Assembly: GCA_963844965.1 (NCBI GenBank)
Contig: CAWJQC010000006.1
Span: 32,001 to 96,000 of the forward strand
Length of the DNA: 64,000 nt
Source: an uncultured bacterium
GTDB lineage: Bacteria > Patescibacteriota > Minisyncoccia > UBA6257 > 2-01-FULL-56-20
Direction of reading: 5' to 3'
A model generated the notes under the pieces. The model did no database searches, was not told where the DNA came from, and saw only the letters and a list, made by a program, of their open reading frames with translations. This document shows positions 4,201 to 32,366 of the stretch, piece after piece. Every line of letters starts with the position of its first letter. Positions within the stretch are counted from its first letter, which is position 1. The translations under genes and the position numbers were made by a program.

Positions 4201-6153
4201 ATCCGCATAGACATTTGTGGTGGTTGTGGAAACCTGAACCCGGTCGCCGGCATTGAACTTTGAACTGTTGTTGATGTTAACGGTTACTGTCGGCGACGCG
4301 TAAGAATTTCCGGCGGAGTCATAGGCCTTTACGACAATGTCTTCTTTGCCATTAGCGAAGTTGAGCGTACTGATGGAGAACGAATAGGGCGGCGAATAAC
4401 CAACGAAATACACGCTTCCGCCCCAATAAAGCTCGACTCTGCTTATAGAGCCGCCGCCGGAAACTGTGGCTGTAATCGTTATGTCTCCCGAAACGGTCGC
4501 ACCATTAGTCGGCGAGGTGATATTTACGGTCGGTCCTCCGGTTACGGCGTTTGCCAAATAATTTTCTACGCTCCAGCCGGATGGACCGGAATCATAATTC
4601 ACATCCCACCACCAGTAGTTATCATAAAAATAGGAAATGCCGGTAATAGTTCCCTGCGCGCCGCTTGGCTGCGTACCCAATATGGTGCTCGATACCATCG
4701 GCAGAGTATGTATGTTCAAGTTGGCGGTGGTCTTGACGCGGTTACCGGCGGCGAATTTACTTGAAGAGGCGTTGAGCTCGCTCGCGGCAATTTTTATCAA
4801 GTAACCCTCGACGCTCCATCCCGAAACAGCGTCATCGTACGTCACTTGCCACCAATTATACGAGTTGGCATTAATGGGACCGCCGCTTACTATCCCCTGC
4901 GCTCCCGCGCTCTCCGTACCGACAATAGCGGCGGAAAGCGACTGACCAGCCCTGACGTTCAAATTCACCGTCGCTTGCACCTTATCGCCTATGGAAAATT
5001 TATCGGAAATAACAGCCTTGGCTAAACCCGACTCGTAGCACCACCCCGTAACCGCATCATTGAAAGTCACCTTCCACCAAATATAGCCATCGGCGGGCGT
5101 GGGACCACCGCTTATAGTGCCGCGCGCTCCCGCCTTTTCCGTCCCCACAGCCACGCCCACGGTCGTGGGAGTTGACAGAACACTCAAGTCCGAGTTTGTT
5201 TGCACAATGTCGCCCATTGAAAATTTATTGCTCGTGGTCGGCGCGATACTCACAAGATACTCCTCTATACTCCAGCCGCTTGTCGCATTATCGTCATACT
5301 TCACGTGCCACCAGACAAAACTGTCGGAACTCGTCGGGCCGCCGATAATACTGCCGAGAGAATTCGGCGCCTCTACCCAACCAATGGTGGATGAAAGCGA
5401 GGGGTCGGAACGAACATTCAGATTAGTTGTCGTCCGCACGCGGTCGCCCATTGAAAACGCCACGTAGGTACTCGTAGCCGTGACGGATTCCGTAATTTTC
5501 ACCAAATAATCCTCAACGCTCCACCCCGAGATGCCGTCATCATATATCACTTGCCACCAGGCATAGCCATCAGCGGCAACAGGGCCGCCCATAATGTGGC
5601 CGAGCGTCCCCGAAGCCTCAGACGTCACAATCGTGCCGGAAAGCGAAGGCGTTGAGCGCACATTCAAACTCTCCGTTGTTTGCACGCGATCGTTCTTTGA
5701 AAATTTCACGGAAACCGCCATTGTCGTCGCACTGACGGGCTCGGACCAAGCCGAGACATTTCCCGCGGAATCATAAGCGGCAATCACGTACGTGTACGTG
5801 GTGGCGGGCAGAAGACCTGTGTCAGCATACGTCGTTCCGACTATGCCACTTATGGGAGGAGGCGTACTGTCTCTCAGAATCGCGTAACCAGCCACTCCAA
5901 TATTGTCGGTTGCTGCATCCCAGCTGAGGTCAATTTCTGTGGTCGAAGCTTCCACTACCTTGAAATTAGTGGGGGTGGACGGCGGCGTAACATCTCTTGT
6001 GCTTGTGGCTTGCGCGTGCGCCGTGGCAAGAGAACAAAAAAGTGGGAATATGAAAAACAAAACAAAAACTCCGCACGTAAATAGCCGGAGGTTCTTTGCG
6101 CACCGCTTGTACGTCTTTAGAATAACCGCCGAGATAAAGAGAGTACTTGGCAT
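1300..6153 (-). CDS. Giant secreted or surface protein with FN3, bacterial SH3 and Ig-like repeats (1617 aa)
   Basis: N-terminal hydrophobic signal/anchor. FN3-like 'LSWDAATDNIGVAGY' modules are present. About seven repeats of 'NLNVRS.PSLS..I......G..G.I.GGP....GY.WW.V.YDDG.SGW' look like SH3b domains. Ig-like Big domains 'VSATDNVAV' are also present. Confidence 0.8.
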   Translation of the reverse strand: MPSTLFISAVILKTYKRCAKNLRLFTCGVFVLFFIFPLFCSLATAHAQATSTRDVTPPSTPTNFKVVEASTTEIDLSWDAATDNIGVAGYAILRDSTPPPISGIVGTTYADTGLLPATTYTYVIAAYDSAGNVSAWSEPVSATTMAVSVKFSKNDRVQTTESLNVRSTPSLSGTIVTSEASGTLGHIMGGPVAADGYAWWQVIYDDGISGWSVEDYLVKITESVTATSTYVAFSMGDRVRTTTNLNVRSDPSLSSTIGWVEAPNSLGSIIGGPTSSDSFVWWHVKYDDNATSGWSIEEYLVSIAPTTSNKFSMGDIVQTNSDLSVLSTPTTVGVAVGTEKAGARGTISGGPTPADGYIWWKVTFNDAVTGWCYESGLAKAVISDKFSIGDKVQATVNLNVRAGQSLSAAIVGTESAGAQGIVSGGPINANSYNWWQVTYDDAVSGWSVEGYLIKIAASELNASSSKFAAGNRVKTTANLNIHTLPMVSSTILGTQPSGAQGTITGISYFYDNYWWWDVNYDSGPSGWSVENYLANAVTGGPTVNITSPTNGATVSGDITITATVSGGGSISRVELYWGGSVYFVGYSPPYSFSISTLNFANGKEDIVVKAYDSAGNSYASPTVTVNINNSSKFNAGDRVQVSTTTTNVYADITPSSTISSGPSVFGQLLGTHSSGTLGFISTSSPVYVNGQGWWFIKYDSDPSGWSPEDSLKKYVPPPDTTPPVVSIVSPTSSEIISGTFNVLVNATDNVGVARVYLYVDGTYKGADTQLPYSFVWDTSSTLNATHTLVAVAYDGAGNGTSSLPVVVTTNNPDTTPPVARISYPLNGQTVSGVARVSVSATDNVAVADINLLADGAAIGPAVTSSPVKSLFYTFLWDTNLATNNASHTLNAIAHDASNNLGTSPPVIVGVKNPPPSTKFSIGDRVMAMSSVNVRSLPSTFAPSLAVEPEGSVGTVIGGSEYSDTYFWWEVSFDSGAEGWVAENYLERISENLLIDPGFELGGSAWSDSAFPGRSVTTSDFHGGTHSEEIDVLSTGLQMVSQDVTNIIPGASYTASGWIKASGVGGSGARIYLLWSSSSTPYYPLLSSMSSIYPQGNLVRVDYVGGILGSGGWTNFSNHFTAPWTAKSVRFLLVTDEDTDGVGSAWFDDLGFYNYGPLPTADTTPPTVVINSPKNNSFIPGGTASVYVTATDNTAVSEVDIYIDGNLVASPTVPPYSYSWNTSGTAEGIHTVKAVATDIFNNSSSTTNTFGIDRTPPTTPTGLVAQVVSLTRINLTWSPSSDNIAVAGYKIMRNGSVIATVSSTPSYADNSVSGSACYTYAVSAFDAAGNNSSASTPVSIVTTAPPPSTKFTIGQRVILTSSATNIAVTSAPSTCAAGTPVGTQTYTVDTVPPTVTLTSPADGSTVNSNTLQFTASAWDMGGAQGTVVGGPVYSNASWWWNVNFDSGPSGWVQEDYMKNGGVTKVGFYIKGILISFASSSPYAANFNVSGFPSGGPYPFYAKAYDTAGNVGTSPTNNVSISPPPLDTIPPTITVTSPADNSTLSGVVTVSANASDNVGVTKVEFYVDAMLKDSKTLPPYSFSWDTTKEDNSPHVIYLMAYDAAGNFQASDYLTVTVQN

Positions 6154-8726: not shown

Positions 8727-9020
8727 TTATTTTTTCGCCGCCGCCATAAAATCCCTCATCTCCGCGACAAGCTCATCAACTATTCCGTCTCTCATCTCGT
8801 CAAGGTCGGGAATTTTATTTTCCAGAAAAGAATTTATCTTTTCGGCGTCGCCTTCTTCGGTCAGCTTGTCAAACTCCTCCTGGTCTTTTTCGTTCAGCCT
8901 GTCGTAAACACGCAAAACGAGACGCTTCAAAAGCGAGTCCGCAAGTTGCACCATAATCGCATCTTTGTCTTCCTGGGTTAAGTTCTCACCCAGCCCAAGT
9001 TCTTTTATTAAGTCCCTCAT
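8727..9020 (-). CDS. Hypothetical acidic 97 aa protein
   Basis: Clean ORF with no recognised motif. Confidence 0.45.
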   Translation of the reverse strand: MRDLIKELGLGENLTQEDKDAIMVQLADSLLKRLVLRVYDRLNEKDQEEFDKLTEEGDAEKINSFLENKIPDLDEMRDGIVDELVAEMRDFMAAAKK

Positions 9021-13765: not shown

Positions 13766-15948
13766 ATGGCAAAAAGAAACGGCAAAAAGGAACGTAAAGA
13801 AAAAAACAATAGAAATGACGCGCGGCGCGAACCGCCGCGCGAAGAACGGCTCCATCCCGACACGAAAAAAAGCATCTGGGCGATAACTTTTTTGGGTCTC
13901 GCTGTTATTTTCACCCTGGCCGCCTTCGCTAAAGCGGGACCTTTCGGCGACTTTCTGCACGGAATATTCGCAACGCTTTTCGGAGCCGGCTACTTCATGC
14001 TGCCCCTCGGCCTCACACTCGCCGCGGCCATCCTGCTCCTCACAGAAAGGCAAAGGGTCGTTGGCATTACAACGCTCGGCGCCGCGCTTATAGTTTGCTC
14101 GGCGCTCGGGCTCATAGAACTTGCCTCCGCCGGCAAGGGCGGCTGGCTCGGCCTCGTTTTCGGCTCTCTTAGATTGCCGTTCGGGACAACGGCGGCCGTG
14201 GTATTGAACATCGCGATTCTTGTAATCGGCATCCTCATTACCGTCAATATCCCACTCAAGCTCAGAAGACAGAGGAAAGATCTGGCCGCTGGCGAGGAAG
14301 GGAAAACGCTCGTGGTCACCGGCGAAGAGGCGGATGAACGACAAGAGACAGGCGGCAAAGGACAAGGGACAAGTGGCGAAAAGACAAAGGATGCGGAAAC
14401 CGAAAGAAACGCAAGTAAAGCCGAGATCGTTGAAAACGCCGCGCTCGCCGTGGAACCGAAAAAGGTCAGTCCGCCAAAATTCGCGGACTACATCCCGCCG
14501 CCACTCTCGCTCCTCAAATCCACCGGCGAGAAACCGACGACCGGCGACCTTCTCGCGAACGCCAACGTAATCAAGCGCACGCTTGATTCTTTCGGCATCG
14601 CGGTGGAAATGGGCGAAATAAACGTGGGGCCGGCCGTGACACGCTACACACTGAAACCGGCGGAGGGAATGAAGCTCTCGCGCATTGAGGCGTTGCACAA
14701 TGATCTGGCGCTGGCCTTGGCCGCGCACCCGATAAGAATAGAGGCGCCGATTCCTGGAAAATCTTTGGTTGGGATTGAAGTGCCGAACAAAGCCGCCGCG
14801 CTCGTGCGGCTCGGCAGTTTAATGACCTATCCGGAATTCCAAAAATCCGGTCCCTTGGGCTTCGTCCTCGGCCGCGACGTCTCCGGCAATCCGGTCTTCG
14901 CCGATATAGAAAAGATGCCGCACATGCTCGTCGCCGGCGCGACCGGTTCGGGAAAATCCATTCTGATACATTCGCTTCTTGTATCGCTTTTGTACAAAAA
15001 CTCACCCGCCACGCTTAAACTCATCCTCATAGACCCGAAACGCGTTGAACTTTCGGTTTACGACCATATACCGCATTTAGTGGGTCCCGTAATCATGGAA
15101 AGCAAAAAGGCGCTTGGCGTTTTCCGCTGGGCAATAAACGAAATGGAACGGAGATATGACCTACTTCTCCATGCCGGCAGCCGCGACATCAAAAGCTACA
15201 ACCAAAACGGCGGTAAGGACGAACCGCTCCCCTACCTTCTTATAGTCATAGACGAACTCGCGGATATGATGGCTTCATACGGCCGCGAAGTTGAGGGCTC
15301 AATCGTGCGTTTGGCACAGATGGCGCGGGCGACGGGCTTCATCTCATACTCTCAACGCAAAGGCCGTCGGTTGAAGTTATCACGGGGCTCATCAAGGCGA
15401 ACATCACGTCCCGCGCGGCGCTGCAGGTCGCAAGCCAAGTTGACTCACGGACAATATTGGATATGGGCGGCGCGGAAAAACTTCTGGGCCACGGCGACTT
15501 GCTTTATGTTTCTTCGGAACTTTCAAAACCCAAGAGAATCCAGGGCTCTTACATCACGGAGGAAGAGATAAATAAGGTGGCGGACTTCATACGCGACAAC
15601 AACATCCCGGACATAACCGGAATGACCAGCTTCGCGCCTGCCGCGGATTCGGAGCCAGACGAGAAAGGCGGGGGCGGAATGTTTGATGAATACCTTGAAG
15701 ATGAGGATGACGAACTGTATGATGAGGCGGTTGAAGTCGTGCGCGAGGCGAAAAAAGCATCGGCTTCGCTCCTCCAGCGGCGGCTCAAGGTCGGCTATGC
15801 CCGGGCCGCGCGGCTTCTGGACATTATGGAGGGGCGCGGCATTATCGGGCCGGGCGAAGGCGCGAAACCACGGGATGTTTATTTAGAAAAAATACCTGGA
15901 GGCCATGACGCCACCGGCTACGGAAACGAAGCCGGCGAAGAAGAATGA
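13766..15948 (+). CDS. ftsK: DNA translocase FtsK/SpoIIIE, split by one frameshift near 15334-15340
   Basis: N-terminal TM helices, Walker A 'GATGSGKS', and 'RLAQMARATG' are present. After 'acgggcttc' the canonical 'HLILSTQRPSVEVITGLIKANI...LDMGGAEKLLGHGDLLY' and gamma domain continue in another frame (ORF 15457..15948). The likely cause is a g deleted from a G-run. Confidence 0.85.
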
Positions 15949-16081
15949 AAGGTGTCACAATGAATCCCGTTAGAAGCCGCGATCGCTAAATGCAATATAT
16001 CAATTTTTATAGAATGGATAATTGTTTCCGTAAGTTAATAAATTCTTGTGGGTCGCTGATCGCGAATCTGCTTCTAACGGG

Positions 16082-16771
16082 ATGAACCCCGAAGATAACT
16101 TGGAAAATCTCGATTTTGCGCAATTTTTGCGCGGGCGACTAAAAGAACGTGGATTCAATCTGAAAAAACTTTCGGAAGTTTCCGGTGTCTCCGCAAAGCA
16201 TCTGGAAGCGCTCGCATCCGGCAATTTCCAGCATCTTCCTTCAGCCCCCTACTTCCGCGGATATGTAGCGCGCCTCGGGCAAATTCTGGATTTTGACGGC
16301 GAGTTCTGGTGGAAAAAACTGAGGGAGGCCGAATCGGTAAAGAGTTCGGAAAAAAGCGACGAGCCGTCCGAAAACAGATTCGTGCGCGCGAAGAACAAAA
16401 AAATCGCGGCGTGGATCGCTGCCGCGGCGCTGATGATAATTTTATTTTTCGGATTCGGGCTCGCGAGAATATCCGGCAAGCCAGTCATAAAAATCACAAG
16501 TCCTTCGGGAAATCCGGCAATCGTGGACACCGCTCAAATTGACATCACGGGTACCCTGAAAAACGCGAGCGAACTTTACGTGAACGGCGAACTCGTAAAT
16601 CCGAGCCCGGACGGCTCATGGACCAAAACTGTTCTCTTGGGCGCCGGCGCCAATTCGTTTGAAATCCTCGCCAAAAAATTCCTCGGCGGCGAAACGAAGA
16701 TCGTAGAGCAGATCATTTATGAACCGCCGGCCACAACAACGACTTCAACCGTTGGCTTGAATCTGAGATAG
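16082..16771 (+). CDS. RodZ-like protein (XRE-type HTH, TM helix, C-terminal domain)
   Basis: HTH 'LKKLSEVSGVSAKHLEALASG' followed by a single TM helix 'IAAWIAAAALMIILFFGFGL'. Start chosen at MNPEDN (16082). Confidence 0.55.
   Translation: MNPEDNLENLDFAQFLRGRLKERGFNLKKLSEVSGVSAKHLEALASGNFQHLPSAPYFRGYVARLGQILDFDGEFWWKKLREAESVKSSEKSDEPSENRFVRAKNKKIAAWIAAAALMIILFFGFGLARISGKPVIKITSPSGNPAIVDTAQIDITGTLKNASELYVNGELVNPSPDGSWTKTVLLGAGANSFEILAKKFLGGETKIVEQIIYEPPATTTTSTVGLNLR
16651..16732 (+). repeat. Direct repeat copy 1 (3' end of the RodZ-like gene)
   Basis: Core 16673-16727 'aaaaaattcctcggcggcgaaacgaagatcgtagagcagatcatttatgaacc' recurs at 18576-18630 with about six mismatches. Confidence 0.7.
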
Positions 16772-16796
16772 ACAGCAAATGTGCTAATATAAAATA

Positions 16797-18530
16797 ATGA
16801 AACAGGCGGGGCAACTATTAATATTTTCCATTTTACTACTTTTGGCGGTAGGAAGTTTCGCGCGCGCGCAATCCGCGGACACCATCCCCCCGTCGGTTCC
16901 GACCGGCGTTACCGCGACCGTTCTTCCCGGCTTGCAAGTTCAGGTTTCCTGGACCGCATCAACTGACAATGTCGGCGTCGCCGGGTATTACGTTTACCGG
17001 AACGGCATGCTCATCGGCAGTACCTCAGATCTGACGTTCACCGATAAGGTGCCGTTTCAGGGATTATATTCCTACACCGTTTCCGCTTATGACGCGGCCG
17101 GGAATCTGTCGCCAAACCAATCACTTCCTTCCAGCATCGTAACAGTTGCGAGCGATACGACGCCTCCTTCCGTTCCCGCCAGCCTCGCGGTAACAACGAT
17201 AACCAGTTCATCCATCACCATTTCCTGGGCCGCGTCAACGGATAATGTCGGCGTCGCCGGATATTACGTTTACCGGAACGGCAGCCGGCTCGTCATCTCC
17301 ACATCAAGCGCCCTCACAGCGACAACCTATACCGACTCCGGACTCACTTGGGGCACCACCTACATCTATACCGTCGCCGCTTACGACGCATCGGGAAATA
17401 TTTCCAGTCAGTCAAGTCCGGTCACCGCGACCACAATATCCGACATCTATCCCCCCTCAACCCCGTTCCTTCTCTCAGCCACCACAAAATCGTCCGGCGA
17501 AATTGATATCACCTGGAGTCCTTCAACCGACAATGTCGGTGTGGCGGGATACTATATATACCGAGGCGGAAGTCAGATTGCGGCCGTTTCATCCACCCCA
17601 CTCGCCTACAAAGATACAGGCCTTTCCGCCGGAACCGATTATTCCTATTATATTGCCGCCTACGACGCAGCGGGAAATATTTCTCTGGACAGCAATTCGC
17701 TGGACACGACGACATTTCCTCCGGACACTATACCGCCATCAATGCCGGACGGCTTCACGGCCAAGGCCGTTTCCGCGTCGCAAATTCAGTTGAGCTGGAT
17801 GCCAGCATCGGACAACGTCGGCGTCGCCGGATATCATCTTTATAGAAGCGGCGGCCAACTCCCCAATTCCACCACCACTTTCAGCAGCAACAGCCAAATT
17901 TTAGACACCACATCCACTTCCTACATGGATACCGGCCTCGCTTCCGATACAATATACGTCTACGCGGTAGAGGCCTACGATGCAGCAGGAAATCTTTCGC
18001 CGCAATCCACCGTCACCGCGACGACACTTTCGTCTGGAACGATTGCCCCCACGACTACGTCGCCCGCTGTTACGAGCAATCCCACCGCCGTGAATCCACC
18101 AGCGACAACGGCTCCGACCGTCACGGCCACGGCACCCGCAAATAATGCCGCCGTTTTTACAACAACTTTATATATTGGACTGCGCAGCGATGAAGTGAAA
18201 ACTTTGCAGTCATTTTTAATACAGGAAGGTTATCTCGCGGCGGGAAATGACACGGGATTTTTCGGACAACTGACCCAGAGCGCGGTTCAGAAATTCCAGT
18301 GCGACCAGAACATTGTTTGCTCCGGCGATCCGCAGAGCACCGGCTGGGGATTGGTCGGCGCAAAAACGAGAAGCGCACTGAACGCGCTCTATTCCGCTCC
18401 CACTTCCGCGCAAGCGCCCGCCGCGAGCGGCGGCGCTCCATCAGTGGCACAGCTGCAGGCGCAAATTCAATCGCTTGAAGCGCTATTGCAATCGCTTGAA
18501 GCACAACTCAACAACCAAAACGCGAAATAG
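16797..18530 (+). CDS. Secreted protein with four FN3 domains, a peptidoglycan-binding domain and a coiled-coil tail (577 aa)
   Basis: Signal peptide. The 'W.ASTDNVGVAGYY.YR.G' FN3 module occurs four times. PG_binding_1-like 'LQSFLIQEGYLA...GFFGQLTQSAVQKFQ'. C-terminal 'QLQAQIQSLEALLQSLEAQL'. Confidence 0.8.
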   Translation: MKQAGQLLIFSILLLLAVGSFARAQSADTIPPSVPTGVTATVLPGLQVQVSWTASTDNVGVAGYYVYRNGMLIGSTSDLTFTDKVPFQGLYSYTVSAYDAAGNLSPNQSLPSSIVTVASDTTPPSVPASLAVTTITSSSITISWAASTDNVGVAGYYVYRNGSRLVISTSSALTATTYTDSGLTWGTTYIYTVAAYDASGNISSQSSPVTATTISDIYPPSTPFLLSATTKSSGEIDITWSPSTDNVGVAGYYIYRGGSQIAAVSSTPLAYKDTGLSAGTDYSYYIAAYDAAGNISLDSNSLDTTTFPPDTIPPSMPDGFTAKAVSASQIQLSWMPASDNVGVAGYHLYRSGGQLPNSTTTFSSNSQILDTTSTSYMDTGLASDTIYVYAVEAYDAAGNLSPQSTVTATTLSSGTIAPTTTSPAVTSNPTAVNPPATTAPTVTATAPANNAAVFTTTLYIGLRSDEVKTLQSFLIQEGYLAAGNDTGFFGQLTQSAVQKFQCDQNIVCSGDPQSTGWGLVGAKTRSALNALYSAPTSAQAPAASGGAPSVAQLQAQIQSLEALLQSLEAQLNNQNAK

Positions 18531-18552
18531 CAGGAGTTTCTCGGCTCAAACG

Positions 18553-18635
18553 CAAATTCCCTTGAGATCGGCGCGAAAAAATTCCTCGGCGGCGAAACGA
18601 AAATCATTGAGCAGATTATTTGCGAACCAACGGCG
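18553..18635 (+). repeat. Direct repeat copy 2 (non-coding duplicate of the RodZ-like 3' end)
   Basis: '...gcgaaaaaattcctcggcggcgaaacgaaaatcattgagcagattatttgcgaacc' lies directly after the FN3 gene stop. Confidence 0.7.
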
Positions 18636-18714
18636 ACATCTGCCACACCTTTCGGCCAAAATCCATAACCGCATAATTGTTTGAGAGGGTCGCGGAAGGA
18701 ATGAAAAACTGCCG

Positions 18715-19101
18715 TTACTGCGCGGCAGTTCCTTCTTCGGGGTTTCTGTGTGTCAACTTTTCGCCACACTCTTCGCATTTAAACCAATCGCTACACTTGC
18801 TACCATCCCATTCCAATCCCGGAACTATTATCCCGGAGCGGATTGCCCGCGGGGGGTCGTCGTTGCGTTGGCCAAAATGAACATGGGGTGTTTCTTTTTG
18901 GCACTTGCGGCAAAACAAAACTATAGTCATTTCGGATTTTGGGTCGCCGCCGACCGTCACCGTCTTCGCGTCTATCCTATTCCCGCGGCCTAAGCCACCT
19001 TTCATATATTGGGGCCATTCATCAACTTGCGCAGCAGTGATTTTCGCAAAATTCCAGAAACCTCTCTCTTTTTCATTTTCAAGACTCCTTCTCGTTCCCA
19101 T
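18715..19101 (-). CDS. Hypothetical Zn-ribbon-like protein (128 aa)
   Basis: Paired Cys motifs 'CRKCQKETPH' and 'CEECGEK'. Confidence 0.4.
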   Translation of the reverse strand: MGTRRSLENEKERGFWNFAKITAAQVDEWPQYMKGGLGRGNRIDAKTVTVGGDPKSEMTIVLFCRKCQKETPHVHFGQRNDDPPRAIRSGIIVPGLEWDGSKCSDWFKCEECGEKLTHRNPEEGTAAQ

Positions 19102-19329
19102 TTTGCTACCCCCTTTTCAGACAGATAAATTAACTTCTATTACTGTACACCTATTCAAAGACTTCATCAAGCTGTTGTACGCTGGATTCAAACTCCCACT
19201 TCGTTTGACAACCAAAACCATTGTTGTAAACTCAATACCATATAAATTAAATAAGCTTTTAGGTTTTAGCTGTTAGCTTTTAGGAAAAACCCGAAGGGCA
19301 ACTCAAAGCTAAAAGCTCAATAAATACAC

Positions 19330-20432
19330 ATGGTTCAAGCCGCCGCTCCAAAAAAATCCAAAGAAGGTACGCCGCAAAGTAAAGAAGAAAATCAAAAGCA
19401 GCTAGATAATCTTCTCTCTTCGCTCCAGGAAAAATACGGCGAAGGAGCGATTATGAAATTGGGCGAAGCGCGCAAAGTTGACGTGGCGGTCGTGCCAACC
19501 GGCTCGTTTTCGCTGGATATGGCGCTTGGCGTCGGCGGCTTGCCTCGCGGGAGAATTATTGAAATCTTCGGGCCGGAGATGAGCGGGAAAACCACACTCG
19601 CCTTGAATGTCGTCGCGCAGGCGCAAAAACAAGGCGGTAAAGCGGCTTTCATTGACGCCGAGCATGCCCTGGACCCGGAATATGCCGCTAAGCTCGGCGT
19701 GAAAGTCAATGAACTTTTGATATCGCAACCCGACAACGGCGAAGAAGCGCTGAATATTCTGGAAAGCCTGGTCAGGTCGGAGATGATTTCCGTTGTTGTC
19801 GTGGACTCCGTCGCCGCGCTCACGCCAAAAGCGGAACTTGAAGGAGAGATGGGCGAACAACATGTCGGGCGGCAGGCAAGGATGATGGGCCAAGCCATCA
19901 GAAAGCTGACAGCAATCGCCGCGAAGACGCAAACGATGGTGATTTTTATAAACCAGCTGAGGATGAAAATAGGGATAATGTTCGGCAATCCCGAAACGAC
20001 GCCGGGGGGGATGGCCTTGAAGTTCGCCGCCTCCGTCCGCATTGACGTCCGCCGCATGGCCCAGGTCAAAAAAGGAGAAGAGGTTGTCGGCAACCGCGTC
20101 AAGGCAAAAGTCGTTAAAAACAAAGTCGCGCCGCCGTTCAAGCTCGCGGAGTTTGACATTATGTTCAGCGAAGGAATTTCCTATGAAGCCGATGTGCTGA
20201 ACGCCGGGATAAGATACGGAGTCATCAAAAAATCCGGCGCGAGTTACGGCTTTTCCGCCCAAGGCGGATCCGCCTCTGGCGGAGAGACGATAAAATTGGG
20301 CACGGCTTTGATAATGTCCGCCTGAAGCTGAAAGAGGACAAGAAATTACTGAACGAGATCAAAAAGAAAGTGACGGAGACAGCGAAAACAGGAGTGATAG
20401 CGGCGAAGAGCGAAAAGGGAGAGGAAGAATAA
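19330..20432 (+). CDS. recA: RecA recombinase carrying a 30 bp palindromic in-frame insertion plus a frame change near its C-terminus
   Basis: Walker A '[10 protein letters not shown]' and the L2-region motif '[25 protein letters not shown]' are present. After 'KKSGASYGF' comes the insert '[10 protein letters not shown]'. The acidic C-terminus '[29 protein letters not shown]...EKGEEE*' is then in another frame, ending at 20430-20432. Confidence 0.85.
20254..20283. repeat. Coding-palindrome element copy E1 (in recA)
   Basis: tccgcccaaggcggatccgcctctggcgga, with 13 bp inverted ends 'tccgcc.a.ggcg' and 'cgcct.tggcgga'. It contains GGATCC. Confidence 0.8.
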
Positions 20433-20834: not shown

Positions 20835-21909
20835 TTAAAGCCGCGCTATCGCCTGCTTCAGCCCGTCAAGCGAAGTGCTCATCATCAAGTATCCCTGATA
20901 CCAGCCGTAGACAAACGTTGCGCCCGGCTGCGAAAACGCAAGCGCTCGGAAAGACGAATTCGCCGCAGTGACATCTTGAAATCCCACAGCCGAAGGGTCG
21001 CCGGGAGAAACCAAAAAGAAATTTTCAATTTTGGTCGTCATTGCTTCAAGTTTCGCCACGTTGTCCTTAAGAAACAGCCAATTTTCCGCCGGCTTCAATT
21101 TCAAAACATACCCAGGCCAAATGCCGTTCGCGTCTTTGTAGGCAAAAACTGTGGCGTCGGGGTTAAAATGCGCGAGAACATACTGTGGGTCAAGAACGGC
21201 GGTATCCGCGGCGGAAAAAATATCGTTCACGTAGGCATCGGTGCCATCGGCTTTCTTCGCGTCAATTTCAAAAAATGTGGACGTGGGGCGGGCTCCGGCA
21301 AAGATACCCGAGAAGCGCTGCGGGAACGTCTGCAGATCCGAAGCGTTCTGCGCGGCGCTACTCAAAGTCAATGTTAGCGTCTGATCAACCGGCTTGCTGA
21401 ACAAAGTGGCGTGCGTGAAACTTGCGCCGACCGGCTGAGGATTGGTATATTGCTGTGTTTGACCTTGCGTCGCAGCCGGAGCCGACGTTCCGGAAACATT
21501 TCCACCGCCAAAGAATATGCTGTAAGCCAAATATATGATGGCCGCGAGAACTATAAGCGCTACAACGGCCACAAAAACAACGGGCCAGAAACATTTTGGG
21601 TCTTACCTCGCTTTCTTTGTTTTCCGGCGCGCGCTCTTTCTTCGCGACTGCCGCGGCTACATCCCCGCCGCCAAGCGCCGCGAATCTTTCCTCAAGCTGG
21701 TTGACCTCTTTGGACGGCTCTTCCTCACTGGCTATCTCGTCATAAGCCGGCAATTTCGGAGCTTTGACGCTTTTAAATTCCGGCCCTCCCCCAGGGCGAG
21801 ACATCGCCTCAAGATCGCTTTGCATCGTCCGCACCTTTACATCCGGCGGCGGAGGCGGAGCCGAAGGAATTTCGGCTATTCCCAAATTTTCGTTTGAAGT
21901 ATCGGCCAT
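20835..21909 (-). CDS. Hypothetical membrane-anchored protein (N-terminal cytoplasmic region, TM helix, extracellular domain), frameshifted near 21575-21595
   Basis: ORFs 21385..21909 and 20835..21572 overlap. The TM helix 'WPVVFVAVVALIVLAAIIYLAYSIFF' reads through from the upstream frame after an A-run. Confidence 0.5.
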
Positions 21910-22962: not shown

Positions 22963-25135
22963 CTATTGCAATTGTTTTATGGACAGCCCGATTCTGCCGT
23001 CTTCGTCGGCACGTATTATCTTTGCGCGGACGAAATCGCCCACCTTAACTACTTCGGTGACAGTTTTAACATAGCCGTTTTTAAGTTCGGAAACGTGGAT
23101 CATCCCGTCGCGACCGCCGCCCAAATCCACTATCGCGCCGAAATCCAGGGTTTTTATAACCGTTCCCTCAATGATGTCGCCGATCTTATATTCTTTGGTA
23201 AGCGCCGTGATTTCCGCGACCGCCGCGTCCGCCTTCGCGACATCCGGCCCGAGACGAACACGCCGCCGTCTTCCTCCACGTCAATACTCGTAAGCCCGTA
23301 TTTCGCGATCAAACCGTTGATCATCTTGCCGCCGGGACCGATAAGCGCGCCGATCTTCGACGGATCGATCTTAAGCTGGCGGATTATCGGGACGTACTTT
23401 GACAACTGCGGCCGCGGCTTGGCGATAACGGATCATCATGTATTTCAAGAATCTCAAGCCGCGCTTTCTTCGCCTGCTCAAGCGCTCTTTCCAGCATTTC
23501 GTGCGTCAAACCGTCAACTTTCACGTCCATCTGCAAGGCGTTCACGCCGTCTTCCGTACCAGCAGCCTTCAGATCCATGTCACCGTGATGGTCTTCCGGA
23601 CCCTGGATGTCGGTCAAAATCTTATATATATCCTTTCCGCCAAAGGCGGATCCGCCTTTGGCGGACATCATTAGCCCCATTGCCGTGCCCGCCGCCGGTT
23701 TTTTTATCGGCACACCAGCGTCCATAAGCGACAGAATGGAAGCGCAAACGGTCGCCATTGACGACGAACCGTTTGAGGACAAAATTTCGGAAACAACGCG
23801 GATCGTGTATGGAAATTCTTCTTTAGGAGGTATAAGGGGCTCAATTGCTTTACGCGCCAAATTGCCGTGGCCGATCTCTCTCCTGCCCGGACCGCGGAAA
23901 GCGCCGATTTCTCCGACCGAATATGGCGGGAAATTGTAATGCAGCATAAAACGCCGCTTGCCGGTCATTTCCATCGTCTCTATGAACTGCTCCTGCCCCG
24001 GAGGAGCGAGTGTCGTTATCCCCAAAGCATGCGTGTTTCCCCGCATGAATAAGGCCGACCCGTGCGTGCGCGGGAAAAGCCCGACTTCGGCGTTAAGTGC
24101 GCGTACTTCATCAAGCCGCCTGCCGTCGGGACGCTTTTCTTTTTCCAAAATATTCTTGTGGACAAGTTCGTTTATCGCTTCCTCAAATAAATAGTCCGCG
24201 TCCTTGAGGATGTGTTCTTCTCCGCCAAAGGCGAATCCCTGCCCGCCGGCAGGCGTGGCGCCTCTGGCGGAAAAATGCTCTTTGACATGCGCGCGCAATT
24301 CCTCGCGCAGTTTCCCAGTGGCGCCCGAAAATTCAACCTTGGTCTGTCTGTATACCGCTTCCTCAAGTTTGTCCGATAAGAATTTTTTAACCATAACCTT
24401 CAGCGGTTCGTCAAATTCGTGCAATATAAGCCCCTCTTTGGGCTTGCCGATCTCCTTTATTATCTTTTTCTGGAATTCTATCAGCTTGTCGTTCTCTTTC
24501 TGCGCCAGCGCGAACGCCGCGAGTATGTCTTTTTCGCCTGCCTCGTCGCCGCCAAGTTCTATCATGTTTATCCTTCCCAAAGAACCGGCGAGGAAGGCAT
24601 CAAACTTCGGTTTCGTTTCTTTTATTTCCGAATTTGTCGGATTGATGGCGAACCTGTCGCCGAACTGCGCCACGCGGACGCCGGCGACGGGACCTCCCCA
24701 GGGAATGTCGGAAATACCGAGCGCGGTTGAAGCGCCCGCGAGTCCCACGAATTCCGGGTCGTTCTCTTCGTCGTAAGCGAGAACGGTCACGACCACCTGG
24801 ATTTCGCGCCTGATGCGCTGGTCAAAAAGCGGGCGGATCGTTCTGTCAACCGTCCGTCCCGCCAAAATCGCGTCTTCTGACGGCCGTGATTCGCGGCGTA
24901 TGAAACGGCTGCCGATTATTTTTCCGGCGGCGTAAAATCTTTCCTCATAATCCACGCGGAGCGGCATATAATCCGCGTCAATGTCCTCTTTGGACATTAC
25001 AACGGTCGTGAGCACCGCCGTCTCGCCGTACTGTGCCAAAACAGCCGCGTTCGCTTGTTCGGCAATCGGCGAAATTTCAAGCGTCAAAGTTTTACCACCG
25101 ACATCGGTGGTGAATTTTTTGCGTGGTATTGGCAT
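22963..25135 (-). CDS. pnp: Polynucleotide phosphorylase (PNPase), split by two frameshifts and carrying two palindromic in-frame inserts
   Basis: The RNase PH core (ORF 23384..25135) has 'SSNGSSSMATVCASILSLMDAGVPI' and 'GPEDHHGDMDLKAAG'. The KH domain 'KIGALIGPGGKMING' is in ORF 23154..23405. The S1 domain '...IGDIIEGTVIKTLDFGAIVDLGGGRDGMIHVSEL...' lies in a third frame and ends at 22963. Shifts occur at about 23407-23416 (gcggccgc) and about 23245-23252 (ccggccc). Confidence 0.85.
23636..23665. repeat. Coding-palindrome element copy E2 (in pnp), a perfect 30 bp palindrome
   Basis: tccgccaaaggcggatccgcctttggcgga equals its own reverse complement and encodes SAKGGSAFGG in the pnp frame. E. 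coli PNPase has no counterpart at this position (...GLVKEGDNYVV...). Confidence 0.85.
24221..24271. repeat. Coding-palindrome element copy E3 (in pnp), 51 bp variant
   Basis: tccgccaaaggcg-aatccctgcccgccggcaggcgtg-gcgcctctggcgga. It has the same 13 bp inverted ends and encodes '...SARGATPAGGQGFAFGGE...' in frame. Confidence 0.7.
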
Positions 25136-26418: not shown

Positions 26419-26684
26419 TTATTTTTTTAAGTCTAATTTTTTAATAAGCTTTTCGTATTCCTTGGGTTGTTTCTTCTTGAGATACGCCAAAAGCCGGCGC
26501 CTGTGACTCACCATCTTTAGAAGCCCGCGCCTTGAGTGGTGGTCCTTCGGATTTTTCTTCAGATGTTTCGCGAGTTCGTCAATCTGGCGGGAGATTACCG
26601 CGATCTGCACCTGTGCGGAGCCGTGTCTTTTTCGTGCGCCCGATGTTCGCTGATTATTTTGGATTTAACACGCTTGGTAAGCAT
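26419..26684 (-). CDS. rpsO: 30S ribosomal protein S15, with a 1-nt frameshift near 26620
   Basis: '[23 protein letters not shown]' is in ORF 26419..26610. The N-terminus '[21 protein letters not shown]' is in another frame from ATG 26682-26684. The expected 'acgggctcc' reads 'acggctcc'. Confidence 0.8.
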
Positions 26685-30828: not shown

Positions 30829-31347
30829 CTATTCGGGCAGAAACTTAGACCATAGTCCTTGCCAGACAGAGCTTTCGTTAACGAAAGCTGGCACCGTCAG
30901 GGCGACTTTCAATAGGCAGGCCTGCGGCTGCGTAATACCCAGGGCGCTGAGAAAATCAGATTCCGCCCGACTGCGCACTTCGTTGAAAGGATTGTTAAGT
31001 ATAGTGATGAGGAAGCTGCTGTCAGCAGGAAAGTAAAGAATGTGGTAATCTCCGGTGCTTCTGAACAAAACATAATCACCCGCTTCTACTCTCACGGCAT
31101 TTTTATAGGGATTTTTTACTTCCACGCTGCCGTTGGGCGTACCGATGGTAATCGTATCTCCCTCGGGGACGGGGATTGGCGGCGGAGGAGGCGTTGGTGA
31201 CGTGGGCGGGGAAATCGGCGGCAAGCCGCCGGGACCGGTACTTCCGGCAGGAGAGGTCTTGTTCCTGACAACCAAAACGACAACTACTCCGACGACTAGC
31301 ACAAGAAAAATTACCGCTATAATAATTATTCTTCTCGTTTTTAACAT
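30829..31347 (-). CDS. Membrane-anchored protein with a Pro-rich linker (172 aa)
   Basis: N-terminal TM helix 'IIIIAVIFLVLVVGVVVVLVV', then 'PISPPTSPTPPPPPIPVPEG'. Confidence 0.5.
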   Translation of the reverse strand: MLKTRRIIIIAVIFLVLVVGVVVVLVVRNKTSPAGSTGPGGLPPISPPTSPTPPPPPIPVPEGDTITIGTPNGSVEVKNPYKNAVRVEAGDYVLFRSTGDYHILYFPADSSFLITILNNPFNEVRSRAESDFLSALGITQPQACLLKVALTVPAFVNESSVWQGLWSKFLPE

Positions 31348-32366
31348 GATAACTTATGAGGACTTGGCGGGGTGAAATTGCATGTGCAGTTCACACTCCA
31401 GTTATCCCATGCCCGGGAATTGGCGGCAAGGGGACAAGCAGCGTTAATATTCGGGCTCGATTTTGTGGCGTCGGTGACACACTTTTTATACAGTGATGTA
31501 TTTACAACCTGACAATGGTAAACATGGTTTGTGCTGTCCCACTGAGCTGCGTGGTTAAAGGCGCTGGGACAGCCATCGCCGTTCACGTCATTTACGGTCA
31601 GGTTGATTTGGAACAGTCCCCACGAGAAAACACTGTTATCTTCCGCGCACTTATCCGACGTGCTCGGCGCCGTAGGATCGCCGCCACTTTCCTTGCTGGC
31701 AATGGAGGAAGCGTCATACGGACCATTACCGATACCGCCGAAACACGAACTGTTGAGGTTGTCTTGTGAAGCATCGCCGCTTGTAAGTGGCGCGCAATTT
31801 CCACTTGAATTGTTGCACGGACTGCCCGGATCGCAACTGCCCGGATAGCAATTTGAGGTTCCTCCGGCATTACTTTGACAATCTGCCTGGCTTGAGTAAT
31901 TAGCTACACACATATTTCCGGCGGCTGATACCTGACACAGTTGGTAAGATGTAGAGCCTCCGCTCGCCGTCGGCGCCGCCACCTGTACCGAAACACCAGG
32001 GAGCAGTAAATTCCAATTTGTCAGATTAGGATTGATGATGTTTAAAATCGTATAAGCTCCGACAAGGAGCAGGAGTCCGACTAATGCACCTTTCACCCAC
32101 TCTTTTCCTTCTGTTTGGCCAGTGGGGTTTCCGGCTGCCAGCGTGTATTTTATCCCGCCATAGACGATAGCTCCGAACGCCAGAATGCCGGCAAGCATCA
32201 TGGCAAATCTATAAAGATAGTCAACGAAGTTCCCCAGGCCGGAGCTGCCAGAAGGTTGACCGGGCAGATTTGTGTAGATAGTGACCTGCGCCCGCGCCAC
32301 CGCGGCGTAAAATAAACAGAAGGAAGCAAAGACCAGTGGACGTAATTTTTTAAACAAGGTTTTCAT
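31341..32366 (-). CDS. T4SS-pilin-like N-terminal domain fused to a Cys-rich lytic-transglycosylase-like (VirB1/SLT-like) domain (341 aa)
   Basis: Pilin-like 'FGAIVYGGIKYTLAAGNPTGQTEGKEWVKGALVGLLLLVGAY'. The C-terminal 'SKESGGDP...SVFSWGLFQIN' matches the SLT catalytic E-S ... GLxQ(I) pattern, with many Cys. Confidence 0.55.
   Translation of the reverse strand: MKTLFKKLRPLVFASFCLFYAAVARAQVTIYTNLPGQPSGSSGLGNFVDYLYRFAMMLAGILAFGAIVYGGIKYTLAAGNPTGQTEGKEWVKGALVGLLLLVGAYTILNIINPNLTNWNLLLPGVSVQVAAPTASGGSTSYQLCQVSAAGNMCVANYSSQADCQSNAGGTSNCYPGSCDPGSPCNNSSGNCAPLTSGDASQDNLNSSCFGGIGNGPYDASSIASKESGGDPTAPSTSDKCAEDNSVFSWGLFQINLTVNDVNGDGCPSAFNHAAQWDSTNHVYHCQVVNTSLYKKCVTDATKSSPNINAACPLAANSRAWDNWSVNCTCNFTPPSPHKLSC

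What the first reader, a model, noticed from the sequence alone, without database searches (positions are those of the whole stretch)
16651..18635. FN3/PG-binding gene bracketed by ~80 bp direct repeats derived from the rodZ-like 3' end
The last ~25 codons of the RodZ-like gene (16651-16732) are duplicated, about 88% identical, immediately after the stop of the FN3 gene (18553-18635). The 1.8 kb surface-protein gene therefore sits between direct repeats, as if inserted by duplication of the target or by cassette-like recombination.
Basis: seen in the sequence. Interest (0 to 1): 0.55.

Follow-up and report, generated by a model that had tools for sequence, protein, structure and literature searches.

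The report
Orphaned gene tail behind relocated surface-protein gene
The repeat is real: it is the dead, left-behind end of a RodZ-like gene, pushed downstream when a cell-surface protein gene was recombined into a normally fixed gene neighbourhood in a few uncultivated Patescibacteria. This is an old scar of ordinary recombination, not an active mobile cassette.

Summary
Read as protein, copy 2 (18537-18668) is the last ~43 codons plus stop of a RodZ-like gene, with no start codon and with changes at family-invariant residues, so it is a pseudogene fragment.

About 45 related Patescibacteria loci keep ftsK, RodZ-like and recA together. The FN3/PG-binding gene sits between RodZ-like and recA only in the window, L004 and L049, plus a deletion relic in L003. 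Its orthologues elsewhere lie in other contexts, such as dnaE-NUDIX-FN3-rplJ or after a tRNA.

L004 is about as diverged from the window as any near relative, yet it shares the same FN3-stop/remnant junction. The event is therefore old. No transposase or integrase was found, and the repeat is not a short target-site duplication.

The remnant's far end (…PFGQNP*) is a different allelic type from copy 1. It matches the live RodZ-like tail of sister lineages L041/L055 and continues into the same downstream gene, orf128.

Best reading: recombination-mediated insertion (single crossover or homology-facilitated illegitimate recombination) that displaced the old 3' end. One point is unexplained: the remnant is more conserved than neutral sites. 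Interest is modest.

The parts
13766..15948 (+). ftsK, the left anchor of the conserved ftsK-RodZ-like-recA neighbourhood. In this assembly it is split by a 1-nt frame change near 15334.
   Evidence: tblastn against the intact L003 FtsK hits two frames, 13766-15358 and 15334-15945. Synteny holds in about 40 loci.
16082..16771 (+). RodZ-like gene, 229 aa: N-terminal HTH_25, one hydrophobic segment, and a C-terminal Glucodextran_B-like Ig domain ending in the family-invariant KFLGGET motif.
   Evidence: Pfam HTH_25 E 1.1e-8 and Glucodextran_B E 1e-7. 59 homologue clusters were found. Invariant columns are listed in alignment A1.
16634..16771 (+). Repeat copy 1: the live last ~45 codons plus stop of the RodZ-like gene (nucleotide-level repeat 16648-16735). 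Its tail is the 'near-clade' type, …EQIIYEPPATTTTSTVGLNLR*.
   Evidence: Over the last 40 codons it is closest to the L003 tail (80.7%) and to copy 1 of L004 (77.0%).
16777..16793 (+). Conserved promoter-like motif AAATGTGCTAATATAAA just before the FN3 ATG. It travels with the FN3 gene in all contexts.
   Evidence: The same motif precedes FN3 in L004, L049 and L053, and it precedes the FN3 relic in L003. A promoter-like site is called at 16769-16798. Promoter function is inferred.
16797..18530 (+). FN3/PG-binding gene, 577 aa: signal peptide, four FN3 repeats, PG_binding_1 and a C-terminal coiled coil. Its native stop is TAG 18528-18530.
   Evidence: Pfam fn3 E 8.8e-27 and PG_binding_1 E 3.8e-8. 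Orthologues end at the same coiled coil in L004, L050, L051, L053 and L054.
18531..18536 (+). Junction filler CAGGAG between the FN3 stop and the remnant. It has no RodZ-like homology and is shared with L004 (TAG-CACAGGA…).
   Evidence: Direct comparison of the sequences and the alignment.
18537..18668 (+). Repeat copy 2: an orphaned RodZ-like 3' end of 43 codons plus TAA, reading FLGSNANSLEIGAKKFLGGETKIIEQIICEPTATSATPFGQNP*. It is a pseudogene fragment. The nucleotide-level repeat is 18551-18638.
   Evidence: It has no in-frame ATG/GTG/TTG start. It changes invariant residues L185 to F and Y213 to C. Its far end is 35/39 nt identical to the live L041 tail.
18709..18739 (+). Terminator-like hairpin (CTGCCG…CGGCAG followed by a T-rich run) downstream of the remnant. 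It probably terminates FN3, and orf128 from the other side.
   Evidence: Terminator-like call at 18717-18729. The same hairpin follows the live RodZ-like gene in L041. Function is inferred.
18715..19101 (-). orf128, a small protein with two CxxC pairs and no known family. It follows the remnant exactly as it follows the live RodZ-like tail in L041 and L055.
   Evidence: No Pfam hit. Only 2 clusters exist in 5.8 billion proteins. The order is colinear with L041 and L055.
19330..20325 (+). recA, the right anchor of the conserved neighbourhood, with a promoter-like site at 19205-19232.
   Evidence: The promoter motif TTGACAA-N-TAAACT is also seen in L003, L004 and L006.

Best explanation
The downstream repeat is the displaced, now non-coding 3' end of a RodZ-like gene.

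In an ancestor of a small Patescibacteria clade (the window, L004, L049, L003 and probably more), the FN3/PG-binding gene was recombined into the otherwise fixed ftsK-RodZ-like-recA locus. It came with its own short promoter and, on its left, a RodZ-like 3' end. The left crossover used homology inside the RodZ-like gene. The right end was joined illegitimately about 130 nt before the resident gene's stop.

This is the geometry produced either by single-crossover (Campbell-type) integration of a circularised fragment or by homology-facilitated illegitimate recombination of a linear fragment. The RodZ-like gene stayed intact with the incoming tail (copy 1). The old tail (copy 2) was left behind the FN3 stop, still attached to its original terminator and to orf128-recA.

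Copy 2 is now part of the FN3 3' untranslated region and is decaying. Relatives have since lost part or all of the structure: L004 lost the remnant's far end and orf128, L049 and L003 lost the FN3 3' end, and L003 lost almost all of FN3.

What is shown: the anatomy, the synteny, the shared junction, the different allelic types of the two copies and the pseudogene character of copy 2. What is inferred: the recombination mechanism, the direction of the event, and whether the remnant's far end plus orf128 is ancestral or was later overwritten by recombination with an L041-like lineage.
For: (1) Copy 2 is a RodZ-like tail in sequence, frame and stop position. It has no start codon and it changes invariant residues (L185F, Y213C). 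The L004 remnant carries further non-conservative changes.

(2) ftsK-RodZ-like-recA is conserved in about 45 loci. FN3 lies between RodZ-like and recA only in the window/L001, L004 (=L005/L008) and L049.

(3) L003 keeps a deletion relic of FN3. L003 8974-9010 matches the L049 FN3 promoter and start 31/37, and L003 9024-9065 matches window 18350-18391 33/42. In each case 0 of 300 shuffles reached the score.

(4) FN3 orthologues at 52-59% identity sit elsewhere: dnaE-NUDIX-x-FN3-rplJ-rplL in L050-L052, and after a tRNA in L053. The gene was therefore relocated.

(5) The FN3-stop/remnant junction (AAATAG + CA(C)AGGA + rodZ-like CTCGGC…) is shared by the window and L004. The FtsK tree puts both in one clade with L003, L007 and L049, with L041 as sister.

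(6) The two copies are of different types. Over 40 codons W2 is 66.7% identical to W1 but 79.7% to L041 and 77.2% to L055. W1 is 80.7% identical to L003. Window 18554-19170 is colinear with L041 from the RodZ-like tail through orf128 (78.5% nt), and with L055.

(7) The native FN3 stop lies right after the coiled coil in all intact orthologues, so the remnant was never part of FN3.

(8) A donor-type arrangement, RodZ-like followed by FN3 with no remnant, exists in L049.

(9) Single crossover of circularised fragments has been shown experimentally to create duplications of 109-950 bp of the homologous segment (PMC3240628). An anchor-plus-illegitimate-join insertion that shifts an old 3' end downstream has been proposed for T6SS and Rhs loci (PMC5361080).
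Against: The event is too old to identify donor and recipient, and no intermediate is available.

The remnants are more conserved than neutral sites. W2 vs the L004 remnant is 71/95 identical, against 257/516 at four-fold sites of ftsK, rodZ and FN3 in the same genome pair; the 33-nt core differs at only 2 positions. W2's far end is 35/39 identical to L041, although recA four-fold identity between the two is 56%. A purely neutral old relic should have decayed more. This requires later recombination or gene conversion (plausible, because L041 and L055 are mosaic at exactly this point) or some function.

The near part of W2 cannot be assigned to either allelic type.

The NUDIX genes next to FN3 in L049 and L051 are only 29% identical, so a block transfer from the dnaE-rplJ locus is not shown.
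Confidence: 0.62

Rival explanations
1. Purely local origin. A tandem duplication inside one genome, covering the RodZ-like tail (with or without FN3), was followed by deletions. Copy 2 was once identical to copy 1, and all differences are later decay.
For: Direct repeats 1.9 kb apart on the same strand, with an exact 26-nt core. The near part of W2 is as close to near-clade tails (28/45 to L003 and to copy 1 of L004) as to L041 (25/45).
Against: W2's far end (…ATSATPFGQNP*) cannot be aligned with W1's (…ATTTTSTVGLNLR*) but is 35/39 nt identical to L041 and is followed by the same orf128. Over 40 codons W2 is 67% identical to W1 but 80% to L041. None of about 45 loci shows a tandem FN3 or a second complete RodZ-like gene. 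The model needs at least two steps.
Confidence: 0.15
2. The remnant is kept because it does something. It could be a C-terminal extension of FN3 made by read-through of the in-frame TAG. It could be a cis element (RNA or DNA) in the FN3 3' UTR. Or it could be a recombination substrate that lets the cell delete FN3 or swap RodZ-like tails.
For: In the window the remnant is in frame with FN3 and open for 45 codons. The remnants of the window and L004 are 75% identical against 50% at four-fold sites, and the 33-nt core is almost invariant. L041 and L055 show that the conserved tail is a recurrent recombination junction: RodZ-like body 61% nt identical, but tail 88% and orf128 94%. The 26-nt exact core is near the minimal length reported for RecA-dependent recombination in E. 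coli (my own knowledge, not tested here).
Against: In L004 the remnant is in the +1 frame relative to FN3 and is degenerate after the core. The FN3 stop is the native one in all orthologues. TAG ends 8 of 35 long ORFs here, so it is an ordinary stop. Both remnants change invariant residues. The remnant covers only about the last third of the Ig-like domain. There is no RNA structure signal (z -0.23 and -0.22) and no Rfam hit. Live genes show no outlying synonymous-site conservation at the core. L049 and L003 have no remnant at all.
Confidence: 0.1
3. FN3 is the cargo of a degenerate site-specific integrative element or integron-like cassette that targets the 3' end of the RodZ-like gene. The two repeats would then be attL and attR.
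For: The geometry resembles elements that integrate into gene 3' ends and bring a replacement end: an intact gene, the cargo, then the displaced end (my own knowledge of phage and ICE integration). The calls show only the geometry itself.
Against: No integrase, recombinase or transposase family was found in the RodZ-like, FN3 or orf128 products or in ten flanking ORFs, or in the called genes of L004, L049, L003 and L041. The 'element' is a single housekeeping-type envelope gene whose orthologues are chromosomal elsewhere. The repeats are about 80% identical and about 130 bp long rather than a short identical core. The repeat finder lists no inverted repeat at the ends of the FN3 gene. Only two copies exist.
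Confidence: 0.03
4. Assembly artefact: a chimeric join or collapsed repeat in a metagenome contig.
For: The window carries many frame-broken genes (ftsK, recA, pnp, rpsO and others), so its base-level quality is doubtful. The Logan contig L001 starts at 16669, 4 nt before the exact core.
Against: L001 independently spans copy 1 (partial), FN3, the remnant, orf128 and recA with 1 mismatch in 3686 nt. L004, from another sample and lineage, has RodZ-like, FN3, the remnant and the recA start with the same junction. A chimeric join at the conserved tail would not create a junction between the FN3 stop and the middle of a RodZ-like tail.
Confidence: 0.02

Closest known systems
Single-crossover (Campbell-type) insertion-duplication of a circularised fragment, and homology-facilitated illegitimate recombination (HFIR) during natural transformation
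   Same: Foreign DNA is inserted next to a homologous anchor. The single-crossover route duplicates the homologous segment as direct repeats flanking the insert; 109-950 bp was observed experimentally (PMC3240628), and the duplication here is about 130 bp. One junction has no homology, here the CAGGAG filler after the FN3 stop. No dedicated recombinase is needed.
   Different: Classical HFIR usually yields an insertion plus a deletion, not a duplication. The event here is ancient and only inferred from comparative anatomy. Competence of these bacteria and the form of the donor DNA are unknown.
C-terminal displacement with 'orphan' 3' ends in Rhs, CDI and T6SS effector loci
   Same: A conserved stretch acts as the recombination anchor. 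A new 3' part plus a downstream gene arrives, and the old 3' end is shifted downstream, where it persists as an orphan retaining part of the conserved region (PMC5361080 and the work cited there). Here the conserved KFLGGET region is followed by a hypervariable tail, and L041 and L055 show recombination at this junction.
   Different: No toxin or immunity pair is involved. The intervening gene is an FN3/PG-binding envelope protein with its own promoter. There is only one orphan, not an array. The displaced piece is about 43 codons, mostly a structural beta-strand region plus a low-complexity tail.
Integrative elements that insert into the 3' end of a gene and carry a replacement end (attL/attR direct repeats)
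   Same: The order is the same: an intact gene with a replaced end, the cargo, then the displaced original end as a direct repeat.
   Different: No integrase was found. The cargo is one core-type gene. The repeats are long and only about 80% identical. There is no sign of mobility.
RodZ (bacterial cell-shape protein: HTH, transmembrane segment, C-terminal domain)
   Same: An N-terminal HTH_25 domain and one hydrophobic segment, with an extracytoplasmic C-terminal domain. JGI names some homologues 'cytoskeletal protein RodZ'.
   Different: The C-terminal domain hits Glucodextran_B (Ig-like), not the DUF4115 domain of canonical RodZ. The gene neighbourhood is ftsK-recA. Any link to MreB was not tested.

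Membership tests
Transposon / IS insertion with target-site duplication | Short (about 2-15 bp), initially identical target-site duplication directly flanking the element | tested here: not met
   The repeat is 88 nt at nucleotide level and about 130 nt at protein level, 80-82% identical, and made of two different allelic types.
Transposon / IS insertion with target-site duplication | Terminal inverted repeats and a transposase | tested here: not met
   The repeat finder lists no inverted repeat pairing the two ends of the FN3 gene. Pfam finds only fn3 / Ig-like families and PG_binding_1 in the cargo and no transposase in the neighbours scanned.
Site-specific integrative element (att duplication at a gene 3' end) | Tyrosine or serine recombinase encoded in or next to the element | tested here: not met
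   No recombinase family was found in the RodZ-like, FN3 or orf128 products, in ten flanking ORFs, or in the called genes of L003, L004 and L049. Not every small ORF in the window was scanned.
Site-specific integrative element (att duplication at a gene 3' end) | The same element or att core recurs at the same target in otherwise unrelated genomes, or is variably present among close strains | tested here: inconclusive
   Presence varies among lineages that are about 76% identical in ftsK nucleotides. The shared junction with L004 and the relic in L003 point to one old event followed by losses. No strain-level data are available.
Integron gene cassette | An attC-type imperfect inverted repeat at the 3' end of the cassette and a nearby IntI/attI | tested here: not met
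   The sequence after the FN3 stop is a RodZ-like coding remnant with no significant fold (z -0.23). No integrase was found.
Single-crossover insertion-duplication / HFIR product | The insert is flanked by a direct duplication of the homologous anchor (about 100 bp or more) | tested here: met
   16634-16771 and 18537-18668 flank FN3 as direct repeats. The size is within the 109-950 bp range seen experimentally (PMC3240628).
Single-crossover insertion-duplication / HFIR product | One junction is illegitimate (no homology), and the insert was already adjacent to the anchor in a plausible donor | tested here: met
   The CAGGAG filler lies between the native FN3 stop and the remnant and is shared with L004. 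L049 has RodZ-like followed by NUDIX and FN3 with no remnant.
Single-crossover insertion-duplication / HFIR product | Direct observation of the event (donor, recipient, circular or linear intermediate) | not testable with these tools
   The event predates the split between the window and L004. No reads or experiments are available.
Rhs/CDI/T6SS-type C-terminal displacement | A conserved anchor region followed by a variable C-terminus, with the displaced orphan retaining part of the conserved region | tested here: met
   The KFLGGETKIVEQIIY block is the most conserved part of the family and is followed by a hypervariable tail. The orphan retains this block.
Rhs/CDI/T6SS-type C-terminal displacement | The variable C-terminus is a toxin paired with a downstream immunity gene | tested here: not met
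   The tail is a low-complexity T/S/A/P stretch. The intervening gene is a secreted FN3/PG_binding_1 protein.
RodZ | N-terminal cytoplasmic HTH (Pfam HTH_25) | tested here: met
   HTH_25 E 1.1e-8, 35.3 bits against a cut-off of 24.6.
RodZ | C-terminal DUF4115 domain | tested here: not met
   No DUF4115 hit at E <= 0.01. The C-terminal domain matches Glucodextran_B (E 1e-7).
RodZ | Interaction with MreB / role in rod shape | not testable with these tools
   No experiment is possible. The presence of mreB in this genome was not examined.

The most novel reading that the evidence does not exclude
The orphan tail might not be a passive scar. It could be a maintained recombination substrate. On this reading, the near-invariant 26-33-nt core shared by the live RodZ-like tail and the orphan lets RecA (encoded next door) swap the hypervariable C-terminal tail, or delete and re-acquire the FN3 gene and neighbouring small genes. 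That would make the RodZ-like/recA junction a recombination-driven variable locus for envelope proteins in Patescibacteria, working like Rhs/CDI C-terminal displacement but without toxins.

The evidence does not exclude this. The remnants are more conserved than four-fold sites. L041 and L055 are mosaic exactly at this core. The gene content between RodZ-like and recA differs in almost every near-clade lineage: FN3, NUDIX+FN3, orf128, a 252-aa gene, a Cys-rich mini-ORF, or nothing.
Probability: 0.07. Interest if true: 0.6.

Novelty: new member of a known kind. Interest (0 to 1): 0.3.

Why it matters
The finding gives a clean, datable example of how a gene moves into a strongly conserved neighbourhood in the tiny, recombination-poor-looking genomes of Patescibacteria without any mobile-element machinery. 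It leaves a displaced gene end as a footprint. It also flags the RodZ-like/recA junction as a small hotspot of gene turnover and allelic mosaicism in these bacteria. For annotation, it warns that the sequence after the FN3 gene is a pseudogene fragment, not a regulatory repeat or a small gene. It does not reveal a new kind of system.

Tried and rejected
(1) Stop-codon read-through of FN3 into the in-frame remnant. Rejected because L004 has the remnant in the +1 frame, the FN3 stop is native in all orthologues, and TAG is a normal stop here. The frame in the window is also unreliable because of its many frame-broken genes.

(2) Structured RNA or a known RNA family in the remnant. Fold z-scores are -0.23 and -0.22, and Rfam gave nothing relevant.

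(3) A nucleotide-level element embedded in the live RodZ-like tail. Synonymous codon identity at KKFLGGETK is 0.64 against 0.49 overall, but several other windows are equal or higher, and it is not among the top windows in the 31-sequence set.

(4) A repeat present after many genes. Only 2 copies exist at DNA and at protein level.

(5) Block translocation of NUDIX+FN3 from the dnaE-rplJ locus. The two NUDIX proteins are only 29% identical over 75 aa, so this is not shown. The window holds no dnaE, rplJ or NUDIX region for comparison.

(6) A breakpoint inside recA between L041-like and near-clade-like parts. The sliding-window identities give no clear signal.

(7) A clear mosaic breakpoint inside W2. 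The far end is clearly L041/L055-type, but the near 45 nt cannot be assigned (29/45 to the L004 remnant, 28/45 to L003, 25/45 to L041).

(8) A relic of the terminator or intergenic sequence after the L004 remnant. The similarity is not significant (260/500 and 57/500 shuffles reach the score).

(9) Relics of FN3 in the L006, L007 and L009 spacers. None were found.

(10) The exact-protein look-up of the RodZ-like product returned nothing, although the same sequence is in the homologue database as P0001.

(11) Naming the source organism. No name is on record. Relatives are labelled Patescibacteria, Paceibacterota and, for one MAG, Saccharibacteria.


Full report
OBSERVATION. The repeat exists. 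The repeat finder reports 16648-16735 and 18551-18638 as an ungapped 88-nt direct repeat, 72/88 identical. An exact 26-mer (16673-16698 = 18576-18601) occurs only at these two places in the window even with 3 mismatches allowed; none was expected in 100 shuffles. Translated, the second copy reads QEFLGSNANSLEIGAKKFLGGETKIIEQIICEPTATSATPFGQNP*. The live RodZ-like tail reads …TVLLGAGANSFEILAKKFLGGETKIVEQIIYEPPATTTTSTVGLNLR*. The protein-level match (18537-18647, 73% over 37 aa, E 7e-14) is the only second copy in the window. It begins 6 nt after the FN3 stop codon. An independent Logan contig (L001) covers 16669-20354 with one mismatch, so the arrangement is not an assembly artefact.

THE GENES. 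The 229-aa 'RodZ-like' protein has an HTH_25 domain, one hydrophobic segment and a Glucodextran_B-type Ig-like domain (residues 134-211); it has no DUF4115 hit. It belongs to a family of at least 59 clusters, all from uncultivated Patescibacteria/Paceibacterota-type bacteria. The block KFLGGETKIVEQIIY is the most conserved part of the family and is followed by a hypervariable low-complexity tail. The repeat covers only the last third of the Ig-like domain plus that tail, so it cannot be a folding unit. The 577-aa gene between the repeats has a signal peptide, four FN3 repeats, a PG_binding_1 domain and a C-terminal coiled coil.

I collected about 45 loci that encode a RodZ-like protein. In essentially all of them the order is ftsK, RodZ-like, recA, with recA usually 100-700 nt downstream. 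An FN3 gene lies between RodZ-like and recA only in three cases. The first is the window. The second is L004 (=L005/L008; RodZ-like 73% and FN3 63-66% identical). The third is L049, which has RodZ-like, NUDIX, FN3 and recA, with FN3 69-71% identical. L003 (RodZ-like 72%) lacks the gene but keeps a relic of it: the FN3 promoter and first codons (31/37 nt identical to L049), fused to the last codons of the PG-binding domain (33/42 nt identical to window 18350-18391). Neither score was reached in 300 shuffles. FN3 orthologues at 52-59% identity lie in quite different places: dnaE-NUDIX-x-FN3-rplJ-rplL in L050-L052, and after a tRNA in L053. L053 comes from the same sample as the FN3-less L007. 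FN3 is thus a relocated chromosomal gene that reached the RodZ-like/recA junction in one small clade. An FtsK tree groups the window, L003, L004, L007 and L049, with L041 as sister.

AGE OF THE STRUCTURE. L004 also has a RodZ-like tail remnant directly after its FN3 stop (…GFLGPSTNSFKISAKKFLGGETKKVKQIIYGSLLYN*). The junction is the same as in the window: AAATAG, a CA(C)AGGA filler, then RodZ-like CTCGGC…. In L004 the remnant is in the +1 frame relative to FN3 and is degenerate after the core; recA follows directly. Between these two genomes, four-fold sites of ftsK, rodZ and FN3 are only 50% identical (257/516). The rearrangement therefore happened once and long ago. It is not a recent or strain-variable insertion.

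WHAT COPY 2 IS. Window 18554-19170 is colinear with L041 6558-7150 at 78.5% nt. That stretch of L041 covers the live RodZ-like tail (…EQIIYQPAATSAIPFGQNP*), the terminator hairpin and the minus-strand orf128. The same holds for L055 (…AAPFGQNP*). orf128 has only two clusters among 5.8 billion proteins, and both lie downstream of a RodZ-like tail. Over the last 40 codons W2 is 79.7% and 77.2% identical to L041 and L055, but only 66.7% identical to W1. W1 is closest to L003 (80.7%) and to copy 1 of L004 (77.0%). After the Tyr codon, W2 and L041 share 35 of 39 nt in a stretch that cannot be aligned among other lineages. Copy 2 is therefore the 3' end of a RodZ-like gene of another allelic type, still attached to its native downstream context. 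It has no in-frame start codon and it changes the invariant residues L185 and Y213. The L004 remnant changes further conserved residues. All intact FN3 orthologues stop right after the coiled coil, so the remnant was never part of the FN3 reading frame.

MECHANISM (INFERRED). An intact gene with one tail, then the insert, then a displaced tail of another type is what results when DNA carrying [RodZ-like 3' part + FN3] recombines into a resident RodZ-like gene. One crossover is homologous and the other join is illegitimate. L049 shows that RodZ-like-FN3 neighbourhoods without a remnant exist and could have been the donor type. Single crossover of circularised fragments is known to give duplications of 109-950 bp of the homologous segment, whereas classical HFIR gives an insertion plus a deletion (PMC3240628). 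The same anchor-plus-illegitimate-join logic has been proposed for displaced 3' ends in T6SS and Rhs loci (PMC5361080). I found no sign of a dedicated mobility system. No recombinase or transposase family was detected in the genes of the region or in ten flanking ORFs, and the repeat finder lists no inverted repeat at the ends of the FN3 gene.

LATER HISTORY. After the event, L004 lost the remnant's far end and orf128. L049 and L003 share a premature stop after …NAL and lost everything from there to the recA promoter. L003 then lost nearly all of FN3. L006 and L007 have no trace of it.

WHAT REMAINS UNEXPLAINED. The remnants are better conserved than a long-dead sequence should be. W2 and the L004 remnant are 71/95 identical, against 50% at four-fold sites, and the 33-nt core differs at 2 positions. 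W2's far end is 90% identical to L041. Between the window and L041, orf128 has pS 0.44 (four-fold identity 27/36) and the tail has pS 0.36, against ftsK pS 0.70, orf245 pS 0.82 and recA pS 0.56. One explanation is later homologous recombination with relatives, using the conserved core as the crossover point. L041 and L055 are themselves mosaic there: RodZ-like body 61% nt identical, tail 88%, orf128 94%, recA 5' end 88%. I could not place a breakpoint inside W2 or inside recA. Tests for a function of the remnant were negative. There is no RNA fold signal, no Rfam hit and no outlying synonymous conservation at the core in live genes. The frame relative to FN3 is not conserved, and L049 and L003 have no remnant.

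VERDICT. It is wrong in flavour: this is not a target-site duplication or an active cassette, but an old recombination scar whose second copy is an orphaned tail of another allelic type. It is a new example of a known kind of event, so interest is modest. The residual conservation of the remnant, and the gene turnover at this junction, keep a small probability for a more interesting recombination-hotspot reading.

CAVEAT ON SEQUENCE QUALITY. Several genes in the window are frame-broken relative to intact orthologues: ftsK, recA, pnp, rpsO and a 328-aa gene. The recA break is also present in L001. Statements about exact reading frames in the window, including 'in frame with FN3', should therefore be treated with caution.

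Noticed in passing
window 13766-15948 (ftsK, ~15334); 19330-20325 (recA, ~20303); 22966-25129 (pnp, two breaks near 23214-23253 and 23414-23432); 26452-26684 (rpsO); 20841-21909: At least six frame breaks occur in genes that are intact in relatives. The ftsK and recA breaks both look like a missing base in a short C or G run next to ACGG. The recA break is also present in the independent Logan contig L001. These are either systematic homopolymer errors or real gene decay.
   Followed up: partly
window 15965-16081: A 117-bp element with perfect 12-14-nt terminal inverted repeats (CCCGTTAGAAGC) is inserted exactly at the RodZ-like start. ATGA is duplicated, so the old start (ATGAATCCCG, 15961) and the new start (ATGAACCCCG, 16082) both remain. 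It forms a strong DNA hairpin (z -4.6). In L004 the ftsK stop and the RodZ-like ATG are 2 nt apart. No other copy occurs in the window or in the 55 loci. It looks like a MITE.
   Followed up: partly
window 19237-19334: A ~95-nt insert with a 36-nt imperfect inverted repeat lies between the conserved recA promoter (19205-19232) and the recA ATG. In L003, L004 and L006 the ATG follows the promoter within about 20 nt.
   Followed up: no
window 20254-20283: A palindromic 30-nt stretch (TCCGCCCAAGGCGGATCCGCCTCTGGCGGA) lies inside recA. It adds …[10 protein letters not shown]…, which is absent from RecA of relatives.
   Followed up: no
window 18715-19101 (-); L041 6713-7084; L055: orf128 is a small protein with two CxxC pairs and no Pfam family. 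Only two clusters exist in 5.8 billion proteins, and both sit convergent to a RodZ-like tail. It is a lineage-restricted orphan gene.
   Followed up: partly
L041 vs L055 (RodZ-like body vs flanks): The RodZ-like body is only 61% nt identical between two lineages whose tail (88%), orf128 (94%) and recA 5' end (88%) are much closer. The N-terminal and middle part of this protein is hypervariable or is exchanged by recombination.
   Followed up: partly
L003 ~8762-8905: A 47-aa Cys-rich mini-ORF (MAKTKRRARASSAIATKSTRCACTRGTCKCRTCACRCSNGKCRCVCK) lies between the RodZ-like gene and the FN3 relic.
   Followed up: no
window 16777-16793; L004, L049, L053, L003 relic: The conserved motif AATGTGCTAATAT(A/T)AAA ends only 3-10 nt before the FN3 ATG in every context. 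This suggests an extended -10 promoter and a leaderless or very short-leader mRNA.
   Followed up: no
L002 3393-4391 (-): A 332-aa ORF with reverse-transcriptase motifs (…YIRYADDFVF…) lies just downstream of recA in the most distant genome locus. It was not scanned against Pfam.
   Followed up: no
window 1300-6153 (-), 31341-32366 (-): A 1617-aa surface protein has six Big_7 repeats plus SH3_3 and fn3 domains. A protein with a T4SS_pilin domain lies further on. The region is rich in envelope and surface genes.
   Followed up: no
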